Positions 17,498 to 20,430 of a stretch of 64,000 nucleotides of DNA are shown here, in pieces. A program made the position numbers and the translations under genes. Numbering within the stretch: position 1 is the stretch's first letter; every line of letters begins with the position of its first letter. The stretch lies in assembly GCF_055900595.2 (NCBI RefSeq), contig NZ_CM148325.1. One strand, written 5' to 3'. The notes beneath the pieces were generated by a model. That model worked only from the letters and a program-made list of their open reading frames with translations. It ran no database searches and was not told the origin of the DNA.

Positions 17498-17522
17498 CAA
17501 AAAACGCGCCCGAAGGCGCGTT
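17498..17522 (-). terminator. Rho-independent terminator downstream of raiA
   Basis: cgcgcccgaaggcgcg hairpin with U-run on the minus-strand transcript. Confidence 0.7.
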
Positions 17523-17545: not shown

Positions 17546-17941
<396 letters not shown>

Positions 17942-18120
17942 TCAAAATGTGTGATGGAAATCTCATAATTTTGTCACTTTTTGTCAACGAATCTTTTTTG
18001 TGAGAAATCGCAGGAAGAGGTGTTTTTTTACTTGAGGAATATCTCAAAGCGAGCCATATTTGATGAGATCGATAGTGACTAAATCGCTTCAGTTTCACAA
18101 CTAACAGAATAAAAAAACGG

Positions 18121-18133
18121 CAGCTCAAGGCTG
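18121..18133. repeat. Left copy of the direct repeat flanking the IS4 element (putative target-site duplication)
   Basis: cagctcaaggctg here versus cagctcaagggctg at 19655-19668 (one G difference). Confidence 0.6.
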
Positions 18134-18146
18134 TAATGCCAGTCAG

Positions 18147-18858
18147 TTAAGCAACTGACTGGCTCTTTTTCGGGGCTGTGGGGTATTTCCAGGGCCTCTC
18201 CTTTACCACTCTCGGGAAGGCCCTTTCCCTTCTTGTCGGTAATTTCACTGGTTGTCCCATACTTGCAAGATCGCGCATCAGCTCCGGTATACGTCCCGGT
18301 GAAGCGCATGGCGTCCGTCATCGACGTCAGCAGATGGCTGGTCAGTTCCATCTGGCAGACCATTTTGACCTGCGGGTAGAGCGCCGGGTTCTCGGCATGT
18401 GTCTGGCGGGGGAAGGCTGCATCGTTCTCTGGTGTATCCGGTGTGCGCCAGAACACACCATCGATGGCCAGCAGGGTCAGGCCGCACCAGTGCGGATGCA
18501 GCGTGGCGTTATGCCAGAGCTGCGCTGTTTTCGTGAACACGCGTCGGACAGCCTCACTTCCCAGGCGCTGGCGGGCCTGAATAACGGCACTGGGGGCAAC
18601 GAAGGGGCGATTGCCTGGCAGCATGATGTCCAGGCGATTCACAATCTGGTGAAGAGGTTCTTTACGCTCAAGCGCCATGCCAACAATACACCAGACCATC
18701 ATTTCGAGGGGAAGACGGCGCTTGCGTAGCGTTACAGTACCTGATTCGGCAAGGCAACGAGAGATGAGTTCGGGGTCGAGGTAATCCCCCAGAAAAGTCA
18801 GTGGGTTACGCAGAGAATCGTAACGGGATACCAAATCAAGGGCCTGTCCAATGAGCAT
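18147..18858 (-). pseudogene. IS4 transposase (InsG-like) pseudogene: N-terminal ~175 aa intact, then internal deletions and frameshift
   Basis: MLIGQALDLVSRYDSLRNPL...HLLT then jumps to SMTDAMRF and loses frame; 259-aa ORF versus 442 aa for intact IS4 transposase (length recalled from memory). Confidence 0.75.
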
Positions 18859-18894
18859 AAATAAATATCCTCCGGCATAGCCGGAGGTTTTTCA

Positions 18895-19607
18895 AATGCG
18901 CCTGTAAGGCTCTGTTACCAGCCGCGCCCTAACAGGCGCATACGATCTGACATTTGCATTCAACTTCGTTACTTACGGCCCGTAAACGGGCTGCCCGGAT
19001 ATGGAATCGATAACTGCTCCCCCATTTTATCCTCTTCAAGCTGGTGCTTTATGTAGTCCTGTATCTTCGCCGTGTTCTTACCCACCGTATCGACATAGTA
19101 CCCTCGGCACCAGAACTCCCTGTTTCTGTATTTGAATTTCAAATCCCCAAACTGCTCGTAAAGCATCAGACTGCTTTTCCCTTTCAGATATCCCATAAAG
19201 CCGGATACGCTCATTTTGGGTGGGATTTCCACAAGCATATGGATATGATCTGCGCAGCACTCTGCTTCCAGAATCCGTACGCTTTTCCACTCACACAGCT
19301 TTCTCAAAATACTGCCTATCGCCCTACGCTTCTCTCCGTAAAACGCCAGTCTTCGGTATTTCGGCGCAAAAACTATGTGATATTTACAGTTCCAGCGGGT
19401 GTGCGCTAAGCTCTTTTCGTCCCCCATTGGGACCCCCTTTTGATTTCTTGTTTGACACTTGCAGTTGCCAGACCGCAAGGTGTTTTAACAAATCAAAAGG
19501 GGTTTTAATAACTGGCTCAAAGCTGAAAGCTTTCCGGAACCCCCAGCCTAGCTGGGGGTTTTCTGTGCACAAAAAAATCCGGAAACGAGTGAGCGTTTCC
19601 GGATTCT
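18895..19607 (-). mobile_element. IS200-like element (IS200/IS605 family), approx. 0.71 kb, boundaries +/- ~20 bp
   Basis: Contains Y1/HUH transposase tnpA, a terminator-like perfect palindrome near the left end (19577-19603), a 5'-UTR palindrome (19540-19558) and a 10-bp inverted repeat after the stop (18896-18905 / 18932-18941); extent inferred from expected IS4 leader length. Confidence 0.7.
18969..19427 (-). CDS. tnpA: IS200 transposase TnpA (Y1 HUH single-strand transposase)
   Basis: MGDEKSLAHTRWNCKYHIVFAPKYRR...HIHMLVEIPPK... 152 aa; the HxH (HIHML) motif is directly visible; ORF-track start at 19478 is an upstream extension. Confidence 0.9.
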   Translation of the reverse strand: MGDEKSLAHTRWNCKYHIVFAPKYRRLAFYGEKRRAIGSILRKLCEWKSVRILEAECCADHIHMLVEIPPKMSVSGFMGYLKGKSSLMLYEQFGDLKFKYRNREFWCRGYYVDTVGKNTAKIQDYIKHQLEEDKMGEQLSIPYPGSPFTGRK

Positions 19608-19654
19608 TACACAGCCACTGAATCGGTCAACTGATCCTTAACTGATCGGCATTA

Positions 19655-19668
19655 CAGCTCAAGGGCTG
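19655..19668. repeat. Right copy of the direct repeat flanking the IS4 element
   Basis: cagctcaagggctg; with the left copy reconstructs an uninterrupted aaaaaaacggcagctcaagggctgccgttttttt terminator hairpin. Confidence 0.6.
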
Positions 19669-19692
19669 CCGTTTTTTTATTTCAATCTTCTG

Positions 19693-20430
19693 TTATGTAT
19701 TGCTGCTGTTAGCAGCGATAATCTTCGCTACCTTTTCAGCTTGCGCATTCATCTGCATCTGACGGTATGCATTTTCCATCAGCGGCAGCGCATCACGCGT
19801 AGCCTGGGTATCCGGATAGTCGCGCAACATGCCTTCTACGCGGTTAACGACAGCAACCCATGCACCACGTTCTGTATAATACTCGGCAACGGAGTATTCA
19901 TATTTCGCCAGACGATCTTTCAGGAATACCAGACGTTTGGTGGCATCGGTGGTGTACTGACTGTTCGGATAGCCGCGCACCAGTTTGGAAAAGTCACTAA
20001 ACGCAGCTCGTGCATGTTGAGGATCGCGATCGCTACGGTCAACGCCAAAGAACCCTTGCAGCGCACTGTCATCCAGCGCCATATTGGTCAGGCCACGCAT
20101 GTACATGACATAATCGATATTCGGATGGGTCGGGTTAAGGCGAATAAAACGATCGATGGCAGCCTGTGCTAACGGCAAATCGGCGTTTTTATAGTAGGCG
20201 TAGATGAGATCCAGCTGCACCTGCTGCGAATACGGACCAAACGGATAGCGATTATCTAACGCTTCCAGTTGCGTTATTGCCTGTCTCCAGTTACCGTCCT
20301 GCAGCTTTTGTTGTGCAGTCGCGTAAATTTCATTTGGCGGATTATCAGGTACTTCTTCCTTTGACCCCGAGCAACCCGCCAAAAACAGGCTTAGTGTGGC
20401 GGCTGCCACCAGATATTTCATGCGCGTCAT
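19693..20430 (-). CDS. bamD: Outer membrane protein assembly factor BamD (YfiO) lipoprotein
   Basis: [22 protein letters not shown]... 245 aa, TPR-like. Confidence 0.95.

What the first reader, a model, noticed from the sequence alone, without database searches (positions are those of the whole stretch)
19570..19612. IS200 left-end terminator hairpin may replace the disrupted bamD terminator
On the bamD-sense (minus) transcript, the perfect palindrome atccggaaacg-ctcact-cgtttccggat is followed by UUUUUUU, a canonical intrinsic terminator about 90 nt past the bamD stop. Since the native terminator was split, bamD transcripts would probably end here, inside the IS.
Basis: inference. Interest (0 to 1): 0.35.

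Follow-up and report, generated by a model that had tools for sequence, protein, structure and literature searches.

The report
IS4 leader terminator ends bamD transcript
The hairpin-plus-U-run 90 nt after bamD is real and looks like a strong transcription terminator, but it belongs to an old IS4 insertion that split the bamD terminator, not to the IS200 that later landed right next to it; this is an ordinary consequence of insertion sequences carrying their own stop signals.

Summary
Observation confirmed. On the minus strand, AUCCGGAAACG-CUCACU-CGUUUCCGGAU (19604->19577) is followed by U6 (19576-19571), beginning 89 nt past the bamD stop. It is far beyond chance.

The attribution is wrong. 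The hairpin is nt 51-78 of IS4, the leader just upstream of the IS4 transposase ATG. It is present in IS4 copies of K-12 and BL21 that carry no IS200. It is also present in sister strains (EC42405, 2020CK-00188) with the same decayed IS4 at bamD and no IS200. IS200 copies elsewhere lack it. The published IS200 left-end terminator (nt 12-34) is the next hairpin, 19560->19538.

IS4, not IS200, split the native bamD terminator. This IS4 insertion is found in 248-591 of 5426 complete E. coli genomes. IS200 (19570->18859) later inserted exactly between the IS4 hairpin-T7 and the IS4 ATG, leaving the U-run intact.

IS4-family relatives at about 38% protein identity keep the same layout (promoter-like site, hairpin, T-run, ATG) with different stems, which argues for a selected anti-read-through terminator.

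That bamD mRNA now ends here is likely (about 0.75) but rests on sequence only; no 3'-end data exist for such a strain. This is an ordinary, known kind of feature: low interest.

The parts
19693..20430 (-). bamD coding sequence (245 aa), stop codon TAA at 19695-19693
   Evidence: ORF list. RefSeq annotation of the 99.9-100% identical strain Z0117EC0005 gives bamD WP_000197686.1, the same protein as in strains without the insertions.
19655..19678 (-). Orphaned 5' half of the native bamD terminator: AAAAAAA-CGGCAGC-CCUUGA-GCUG, cut after 4 nt of the 3' arm. 19655-19668 is one copy of the IS4 target duplication.
   Evidence: The empty site in strain 9000 reads AAAACGGCAGC-CCUUGA-GCUGCCG-UUUUUUU. 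The remnant folds at only -6.8 kcal/mol, z = -0.15, and has no U-run.
19571..19654 (-). IS4 nt 1-84: terminal inverted repeat, promoter-like site, leader hairpin and T-run. In intact IS4 these directly precede the transposase ATG (nt 85).
   Evidence: BLAST to K-12 IS4 (1426 bp): window 19654->19564 matches IS4 nt 1-91 at 96.7%. The same sequence is seen in BL21, K-12 and GPEC606 IS4 copies without IS200.
19603..19630 (-). Sigma-70-like promoter inside IS4: TTGACC, 16 nt, (TG)-AAGAAT. Its -10 overlaps the first two bases of the hairpin's 5' arm, so the predicted start (about 19600-19596) lies inside that arm.
   Evidence: Consensus scan, 9/12 matches plus TG. TTGACC, the 16-nt spacing and a -10-like hexamer abutting the hairpin are kept in ISAeme15 and another IS4-family element at about 38% protein identity. 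No transcription start data.
19577..19604 (-). The hairpin of the finding: AUCCGGAAACG-CUCACU-CGUUUCCGGAU. This is the IS4 leader stem-loop (IS4 nt 51-78).
   Evidence: Canonical IS4 has G.U at the loop-closing pair (-14.6 kcal/mol). This copy, and some other IS4 copies, have G-C (-15.9 kcal/mol).
19571..19576 (-). U-run of the terminator (U6, or U7 with 19577). This is the native IS4 T7 that precedes the IS4 ATG. IS200 begins immediately 3' of it, with up to 3 nt of ambiguity.
   Evidence: Pre-insertion state in EC42405 and 2020CK-00188...CCGGATTTTTTT|ATGCTCATTGG. Window...CCGGATTTTTTT|GTGCACAG...(IS200)...TATTT|ATGCTCATTGG.
18859..19570 (-). IS200 (712 bp), with tnpA on the minus strand at 18969-19427.
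   Evidence: 99.6% identical over 18859-19582 to an IS200 copy between decR and cof in strain 631. Annotated as an IS200/IS605 transposase in Z0117EC0005.
19538..19560 (-). The real IS200 left-end inverted repeat: AACCCCCAGC-UAG-GCUGGGGGUU. This is the published bidirectional terminator (nt 12-34 of IS200), only 10 nt after the IS4 U-run.
   Evidence: The Rfam STnc490 match starts here (19560->19437, 146 bits, E = 3e-31). Literature: PMC4513863 and PMC5435999. Energy -18 kcal/mol. It has a T-run only on the plus strand.
18869..18887 (-). IS200 right-end hairpin, CCUCCGGC-UAU-GCCGGAGG.
   Evidence: Flagged as terminator-like on both strands. Energy -15.9 kcal/mol.
18134..18858 (-). Remainder of IS4 (nt 85-1426), decayed. 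Two internal deletions (about nt 619-940 and 984-1252) and an ATG-CAC to ATG-CTC change. It contains the chimeric 259-aa ORF 18079-18858.
   Evidence: BLAST to K-12 IS4. Annotated as a frameshifted IS4-family pseudogene in sister strains.
18138..18163 (+). Hairpin at the transposase-distal end of IS4: GCCAGTCAGTT-AAGC-AACTGACTGGC, then TCTTTTT. It faces transcription entering IS4 from the other side.
   Evidence: Stringent scan. In K-12 a Term-seq 3' end maps at 4502127(+), right after this hairpin's T-run, in two of three growth conditions (PMC7815308 Supplementary file 1).
18111..18133 (-). Orphaned 3' half of the native bamD terminator (CAG-CCUUGA-GCUGCCG-UUUUUUU). It includes the second copy of the IS4 target duplication, which has lost one G.

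Best explanation
The hairpin plus U-run is the 5' leader terminator of IS4, not of IS200.

1. Shown: IS4 inserted into the native bamD terminator. That site is an AAA-N20-TTT palindrome. The insertion cut the terminator after 4 nt of its 3' arm and left no usable stop signal on the bamD side.
2. Shown: the transposase-proximal end of IS4 faces bamD. It carries, at nt 51-78, an 11-bp stem-loop followed by T7 and then the transposase ATG.
3. Inferred: in IS4 this element stops, and translationally masks, transcripts that read in from outside. IS4's own promoter-like site would start transcripts inside the 5' arm, so those transcripts cannot form the full hairpin.
4. Shown: IS200 later inserted exactly 3' of the T-run, leaving the hairpin and U-run intact. 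IS200 copies almost always sit right after a terminator-like hairpin plus T-run.
5. Inferred: bamD transcripts now run 89 nt past the stop codon, form this hairpin and are released in the U-run at about 19575-19571. Any read-through meets the IS200 left-end terminator 10 nt further on.
For: Identity of the hairpin:
- Window 19654->19571 equals IS4 nt 1-84. The hairpin is nt 51-78 and the ATG is nt 85 in K-12 IS4.
- The same sequence is in the K-12 and BL21 IS4 copies and in IS4 at bamD without IS200.
- EC42405 and 2020CK-00188 carry the same decayed IS4 and the same bamD allele, and read ...CCGGATTTTTTT|ATGCTC. This is the empty site for IS200.
- 25 distinct IS200 left-end flanks from more than 10 genera each have a different upstream hairpin.

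Terminator quality:
- 11-bp stem, -15.9 kcal/mol, z = -6.8.
- 7 of the next 8 nt are U.
- It is one of only 8 such sites in 64 kb, against 0 in simulations.
- It compares well with the native bamD terminator, whose 7-bp core is -12.3 kcal/mol and -17.3 with its A/U extension.

Loss of the native terminator:
- Empty-site comparison and target duplication. The remnant is at z = -0.15 and has no U-run.

Selection on the element:
- ISAeme15 and another IS4-family element, at about 38% protein identity, keep the order IR, TTGACC, 16 nt, -10-like hexamer, hairpin, T-run, ATG, with different stems that still pair (-17.8 and -16.1 kcal/mol).
- Transcripts started at the predicted IS4 start keep only -8.9 to -1.1 kcal/mol of stem, and that stem is separated from the U-run.

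Precedent:
- The other terminal hairpin of IS4 has a Term-seq 3' end in K-12.
- IS-borne 5' terminators that block read-through are a described class (PMC2965389; bioRxiv 10.1101/2025.07.22.666184).
- IS4 at this site is tolerated in 248-591 of 5426 complete E. coli genomes.
Against: - There are no RNA 3'-end or read-through data for any strain carrying this arrangement.
- K-12 Term-seq shows no 3' end at this IS4 hairpin. Nothing reads into it there, because nanX diverges from it, so that dataset is uninformative.
- The same dataset lists no 3' end at the native bamD terminator either.
- The built-in scanner did not call the site; this is explained by its stem-extension rule.
- The base of the stem is A-U/U-A rather than G-C.
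- The IS4 promoter is only a consensus match.
- The 84-nt leader is no better conserved than the rest of IS4 (2 of 84 changes against about 1.7% elsewhere). There is therefore no sign of host selection for it as a bamD terminator.
Confidence: 0.75

Rival explanations
1. One reading: the hairpin is the IS200 left-end terminator, part of IS200 itself.
For: It lies directly next to the IS200 left end. IS200 is known to carry a left-end terminator (PMC4513863).
Against: - The hairpin is present in IS4 copies with no IS200, and in the same locus before IS200 arrived.
- It is absent from the IS200 copy at decR-cof and from 24 other IS200 copies, each of which abuts a different hairpin.
- The published IS200 terminator is nt 12-34, which is 19560->19538.
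Confidence: 0.01
2. The IS4 hairpin mainly masks the IS4 ribosome-binding site, or acts at the DNA level, and terminates poorly. bamD transcripts then read through and end further on: at the IS200 left-end terminator (19560-19538), at the IS200 right-end hairpin (18887-18869), or at the orphaned 3' half of the native terminator (18133-18111).
For: - The stem base is A-U rich.
- The GGA of a weak Shine-Dalgarno sequence lies in the 3' arm.
- The IS200 left-end repeat is reported to stop about 85% of upstream transcripts (PMC5435999).
- Three further hairpins lie downstream on the same strand.
Against: - An 11-bp stem followed directly by U6-7 fits every sequence criterion of an efficient intrinsic terminator.
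- The IS200 left-end hairpin has only two U's after it in this direction.
- The hairpin-plus-T-run pairing, not just the hairpin, is conserved in IS4 relatives.
Confidence: 0.17
3. bamD 3' ends are set by Rho-dependent termination or RNase processing in the 89-nt untranslated stretch or beyond, independently of the hairpin.
For: None specific. Untranslated RNA downstream of a stop codon can recruit Rho.
Against: - Only 89 nt of untranslated RNA precede a strong hairpin.
- The K-12 Rho-region table lists nothing at bamD, although K-12 lacks the insertion.
Confidence: 0.05

Closest known systems
IS200 left-end bidirectional Rho-independent terminator (nt 12-34 of IS200; Beuzon et al. 1999, as cited in PMC4513863 and PMC5435999)
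   Same: A hairpin near the transposase-proximal end of an insertion sequence that protects the transposase gene from impinging transcription. It lies 10 nt downstream of the feature studied here.
   Different: A different sequence (AACCCCCAGCUAGGCUGGGGGUU), a different element and different coordinates (19560->19538). The feature of the finding lies outside IS200.
[quoted passage not shown]
   Same: An intrinsic-terminator-like element between the IS end and the transposase start. It is proposed to prevent IS expression when the element sits in a transcribed region, and it can act on neighbouring host transcripts.
   Different: I did not find IS4 named in those passages. Here the element would act as the 3' terminator of the upstream host gene, not as an attenuator of a downstream one.
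IS10/IS50 protection from external promoters (Davis, Simons & Kleckner 1985, as listed in PMC2965389 reference 59). My knowledge of the mechanism is from memory.
   Same: The element's own promoter lies inside or next to an inverted repeat. Only read-through transcripts carry both arms and form the inhibitory hairpin.
   Different: In IS10 and IS50 the hairpin blocks translation. Here the hairpin is followed by a U-run and should also terminate. The IS4 promoter and start site are predicted, not mapped.
Native bamD intrinsic terminator (AAAACGGCAGC-CCUUGA-GCUGCCG-UUUUUUU)
   Same: Same strand, and a comparable stem energy and U-run. The same presumed job.
   Different: It is destroyed in this strain by IS4. 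The replacement lies about 60 nt further downstream and is of foreign origin.

Membership tests
IS200 left-end terminator | Lies inside IS200, at about nt 12-34 from the left end | tested here: not met
   The IS200 boundary is at 19570 (up to 3 nt ambiguity). The hairpin at 19577-19604 is outside it. Nt 12-34 correspond to 19560-19538.
IS200 left-end terminator | Travels with IS200: present in other copies, absent from the site before insertion | tested here: not met
   It is absent from the decR-cof copy and from 24 other copies. It is present in the IS200-free state of this locus.
IS4 (insG) 5' leader | Contiguous with the IS4 terminal inverted repeat at a fixed distance, directly upstream of the transposase ATG | tested here: met
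   Nt 51-78 of the 1426-bp K-12 IS4, with the ATG at nt 85. The same holds in BL21, GPEC606, STEC17-190, strain 2452 and Klebsiella sp. LY.
IS4 (insG) 5' leader | Structure kept in diverged relatives through changed but still pairing stems | tested here: met
   ISAeme15: AUCCGGAACCA/UGGUUCCGGAU. E. coli plasmid element: AACGGCUUCC/GGGAGCCGUU. Each is followed by a T-run and ATG. Only 3 lineages were compared. Burkholderia and Ralstonia relatives use a hairpin formed by the terminal repeat instead.
Intrinsic (Rho-independent) terminator | Stable G+C-containing stem-loop (5-14 bp, loop 3-8 nt) immediately followed by a U-rich tract | tested here: met
   11 bp with 6 G-C pairs, a 6-nt loop, -15.9 kcal/mol, then UUUUUUGU.
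Intrinsic (Rho-independent) terminator | RNA 3' ends in the U-tract in vivo, or termination in vitro | not testable with these tools
   There are no data for a strain with this locus. K-12 Term-seq is uninformative for this hairpin, though it shows a 3' end at the other IS4 terminal hairpin.
IS10/IS50-type protection from outside transcription | The element's own transcript starts inside the inverted repeat and so escapes the hairpin | tested here: inconclusive
   A promoter-like site at 19630->19603 (9/12 plus TG) has its -10 overlapping the 5' arm. The arrangement is conserved in 3 lineages. Truncated transcripts fold weakly. No transcription start has been mapped.

The most novel reading that the evidence does not exclude
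Two successive terminator-seeking insertions created this locus.

- IS4 chose the bamD terminator, an AAA-N20-TTT palindrome.
- IS200 then chose IS4's own leader terminator.

If IS200 recognises the hairpin-plus-T-run structure itself, then any strong terminator is a landing pad for it, including those inside other insertion sequences. 24 of 25 distinct copies in more than 10 genera abut a different terminator-like hairpin, against 0.26% of control positions. On this reading the IS4 stub would be an exapted bamD terminator, kept in 5-11% of E. coli genomes.
Probability: 0.3. Interest if true: 0.4.

Novelty: new member of a known kind. Interest (0 to 1): 0.2.

Why it matters
The result corrects an annotation-level error: which insertion sequence owns the hairpin, and which one broke the bamD terminator.

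It also gives a concrete, testable case of an insertion sequence's self-protective terminator taking over 3'-end formation of an essential host gene. The arrangement is present in roughly 5-11% of complete E. coli genomes.

The side observation may help explain why IS200 is so silent: IS200 copies sit immediately after intrinsic-terminator-like hairpins in nearly every case examined. None of this changes what is known about terminators or insertion sequences in kind.

Tried and rejected
- **Built-in terminator scan.** It did not flag the site. The cause is stem over-extension into the U-run. I replaced it with my own scan and simulations.
- **K-12 Term-seq tables (PMC7815308).** I looked for a 3' end at the IS4 leader hairpin and at the native bamD terminator. 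Neither is listed. The first is expected, because nanX diverges from IS4 in K-12. Only the distal IS4 hairpin has a 3' end.
- **Papers not held.** I tried to read Mahillon & Chandler 1998, Beuzon et al. 1999 and Thomason et al. 2015 for IS4/IS200 details and insG start sites. None is held.
- **Literature searches on the IS4 hairpin.** They found nothing specific.
- **MAFFT alignment of the five IS4-family leaders.** It shifts register in the 3' arm of the two distant members. I did not run formal pair counting on it and compared the stems by folding each one.
- **Exaptation test.** The IS4 leader at bamD is no better conserved than the rest of the element (2 of 84 changes against about 1.7%). 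The G-C-strengthened variant also occurs in an intact IS4 at this site (STEC17-190). There is therefore no evidence of host selection.
- **Exact IS200 left boundary.** It cannot be fixed to better than 3 nt. IS200's right end also ends in TTT, and the cof T-run length differs between strains (T8 in K-12, T7 in strain 631).

Full report
**1. The observation**

On the minus strand, window 19612->19570 reads GUGUAAGA-AUCCGGAAACG-CUCACU-CGUUUCCGGAU-UUUUUU-G.
- The stem is a perfect 11 bp (19604-19594 pairing with 19587-19577) and the loop is 6 nt.
- Six U's follow (19576-19571), or seven if the closing A-U pair is counted with the run.
- bamD is the 245-aa ORF 20430->19693. The hairpin starts 89 nt after the stop codon, and the last U is 122 nt after it.
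- The hairpin alone folds at -15.9 kcal/mol (z = -6.8; 0 of 200 shuffles as good). With its A/U extension it folds at -22.4 kcal/mol.
- The 28-mer is unique in the window, with 0 matches expected by chance.
- A stringent scan of my own finds 8 such perfect hairpin-plus-T-run sites in 64 kb, this one included, and none in 30 Markov-simulated windows.
- The built-in scan missed it only because it extends the stem through AAGA.UUUU and then finds too few U's left.

**2. Whose hairpin is it?**

A megablast of 17880-19760 against 5426 complete E. coli genomes showed that the region is a mosaic: raiA, IS4 pieces, IS200, an IS4 piece, bamD.

Mapping against the 1426-bp IS4 of K-12 gives:
- window 19654->19571 = IS4 nt 1-84
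- window 18858->18325 = IS4 nt 85-618
- window 18338->18296 = IS4 nt 941-983
- window 18307->18134 = IS4 nt 1253-1426

This is a decayed IS4 with two internal deletions.

In intact IS4 the transposase-proximal end reads: TAATGCC...TTGACCGATCCAGTGGCTGTGTAAGA-ATCCGGAAACG-CTCACT-TGTTTCCGGAT-TTTTTT-ATG CAC ATT GGA (MHIG...). The hairpin is nt 51-78 and the transposase ATG is nt 85. The hairpin and its T-run are therefore native IS4 sequence.

An IS200 copy at an unrelated site (between decR and cof, strain 631) matches the window only over 18859-19577/82. Upstream of it lies a different hairpin, CCGGGCAATTGCCCGG plus T7, which is the cof terminator also present in K-12 without IS200.

The decisive comparison is with strains EC42405 and 2020CK-00188. 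They carry the same decayed IS4, the same ATG-CTC variant and the same bamD-flank allele, but no IS200. They read ...CGTTTCCGGATTTTTTT|ATGCTCATTGG. The window reads ...CGTTTCCGGATTTTTTT|GTGCACAG...(712 bp)...ATATTTATTT|ATGCTCATTGG.

IS200 (19570->18859) was therefore inserted cleanly between the IS4 T-run and the IS4 ATG. There is no duplication, and at most 3 nt of positional ambiguity.

The published IS200 terminator is at nt 12-34 of the 707-bp element (PMC4513863; PMC5435999). That is the next hairpin, AACCCCCAGC-UAG-GCUGGGGGUU at 19560->19538, where the full-length Rfam STnc490 match begins (146 bits).

**3. Who broke the bamD terminator?**

The empty site (strain 9000) has, in the bamD sense, AAAACGGCAGC-CCUUGA-GCUGCCG-UUUUUUU.

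In the window the bamD side keeps AAAAAAACGGCAGCCCUUGAGCUG and then runs straight into the IS4 inverted repeat (19655/19654). The other IS4 end is followed by CAGCCUUGAGCUGCCGUUUUUUU (18133->18111). This is a 13-14-bp target duplication with one G lost.

The remnant next to bamD folds no better than shuffles (-6.8 kcal/mol, z = -0.15) and has no U-run.

The target is AAA-N20-TTT, and so is the K-12 IS4 site. That matches the IS4 target consensus I recall from Mayaux et al. 1984, which I could not verify here.

The IS4/bamD junction is found in 248 genomes with an 86-nt junction query, and in 591 genomes with a 141-nt query, out of 5426. The full IS4::IS200 arrangement is in 58.

**4. What the hairpin is for**

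I searched IS4-transposase relatives on plasmids and read their upstream regions.
- Klebsiella IS4 (96% protein identity), ISAeme15 (38%) and an E. coli plasmid IS4-family element (39%) all keep the same order: inverted repeat, TTGACC, 16 nt, -10-like hexamer, hairpin, T-run, ATG.
- Their stems differ but still pair. ISAeme15 has AUCCGGAACCA/UGGUUCCGGAU at -17.8 kcal/mol. The plasmid element has AACGGCUUCC/GGGAGCCGUU at -16.1 kcal/mol.
- Burkholderia and Ralstonia relatives lack this arrangement. Instead their terminal repeat itself folds into a hairpin plus T-run.

Conservation of structure, but not of sequence, argues for a selected role.

The -10-like hexamer overlaps the first bases of the 5' arm. 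Transcripts started there would keep only -8.9 to -1.1 kcal/mol of stem, and that stem would be detached from the U-run.

My inference is that read-through transcripts form the full terminator, which also buries the GGA of a weak Shine-Dalgarno sequence, while IS4's own transcripts escape. This is the logic known for IS10 and IS50. It also fits the class of IS 5' terminators described by Naville & Gautheret (PMC2965389) and by a recent survey (bioRxiv 10.1101/2025.07.22.666184).

There is experimental precedent within IS4. In K-12 a Term-seq 3' end maps at 4502127(+), one base after the T-run of the hairpin at the other end of IS4 (window equivalent 18138-18163, plus strand). It appears in two of three growth conditions (PMC7815308 Supplementary file 1).

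No 3' end is listed at the leader hairpin in K-12, but nothing is transcribed into it there.

**5. Consequence for bamD**

The native terminator is gone and the IS4 leader faces bamD. bamD transcripts should therefore reach the hairpin 89 nt after the stop codon and end in the U-run. This is inference from sequence.
- For it: canonical geometry and energy, conserved architecture, and wide tolerance of IS4 at this site.
- Against it: no RNA data, and an A-U-rich stem base.

Read-through would meet the IS200 left-end terminator 10 nt later. That terminator is reported to stop about 85% of upstream transcripts (PMC5435999), so bamD and IS200 tnpA are doubly insulated. bamD protein is unchanged.

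**6. Side result: IS200 sits behind terminators**

An exact-match scan for the IS200 left end in one genome per species returned 26 loci from Citrobacter, Brenneria, Kluyvera, Pluralibacter, Mangrovibacter, Entomohabitans, Yersinia, Kosakonia and others.
- Together with the window and the decR-cof copy (strain 631) these give 25 distinct left flanks. In 24 of them a different G+C-rich hairpin followed by a T-rich tail abuts the IS.
- The same test is positive at 0.26% of random positions in the same loci.
- The exception (L009) has an imperfect hairpin.

IS200 therefore treated the IS4 leader like any host terminator. This agrees with the family-level enrichment reported in the 2025-26 preprint, so it is not new in kind.

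**7. Verdict**
- The sequence feature is real.
- The functional idea, that it substitutes for the bamD terminator, is plausible. I put it at about 0.75.
- The ownership (IS200) and the history (terminator split by IS200) are wrong.
- It is a further example of a known kind of element and of low general interest.

Noticed in passing
window 18138-18163 (+): The transposase-distal end of IS4 also folds into a perfect 11-bp hairpin followed by TCTTTTT, facing inward. In K-12 a Term-seq 3' end (4502127, + strand) maps right after its T-run. IS4 therefore appears to be insulated by terminators at both ends.
   Followed up: partly
L007-L032 (IS200 left-end flanks), L004, window 19571-19604: 24 of 25 distinct IS200 copies from more than 10 enterobacterial genera lie immediately 3' of a different terminator-like hairpin plus T-run (control 0.26%). 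IS200 appears to target, or to survive only behind, intrinsic terminators.
   Followed up: partly
window 18111-18133 and 19655-19678; L006 flanks of K-12 IS4: Both IS4 insertion sites examined (the bamD terminator and the K-12 site) fit AAA-N20-TTT, with 12-14-bp target duplications. The copy of the duplication on the raiA side has lost one G.
   Followed up: partly
window 18079-18858 (-): The 259-aa ORF is a chimera produced by two internal IS4 deletions (about nt 619-940 and 984-1252 of IS4), each with overlapping BLAST ends that suggest short repeats at the deletion joints. It is annotated as a frameshifted pseudogene in sister strains.
   Followed up: partly
window 19437-19560 (-): The Rfam STnc490 model matches full-length on the tnpA-sense strand. 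The literature describes STnc490/art200 as antisense to the tnpA 5'UTR. The model's strand may correspond to the 5' tnpA RNA, or to the seed's orientation.
   Followed up: no
window 19603-19630 (-): The IS4 promoter-like site now points into IS200. If it is active, its transcripts would enter IS200 and meet the IS200 left-end terminator about 35-60 nt later.
   Followed up: no
window 17503-17522 (-): The raiA terminator (AACGCGCC-UUCG-GGCGCGUU plus U-run) is intact. It corresponds to the strong K-12 Term-seq 3' end at 2737542.
   Followed up: partly
window 18800-18892 (+): There is a weak Rfam Ysr202 match (29.9 bits against a gathering score of 315). It rests only on the IS200 right-end hairpin resembling that model's terminator, so it is a chance or terminator-only match.
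   Followed up: no
window 19587 (plus-strand G; C on the minus strand): This IS4 copy has a G-C loop-closing pair where canonical IS4 has G.U (-15.9 against -14.6 kcal/mol). The variant also occurs in an intact IS4 at bamD (STEC17-190), so it is not specific to the decayed copy.
   Followed up: yes
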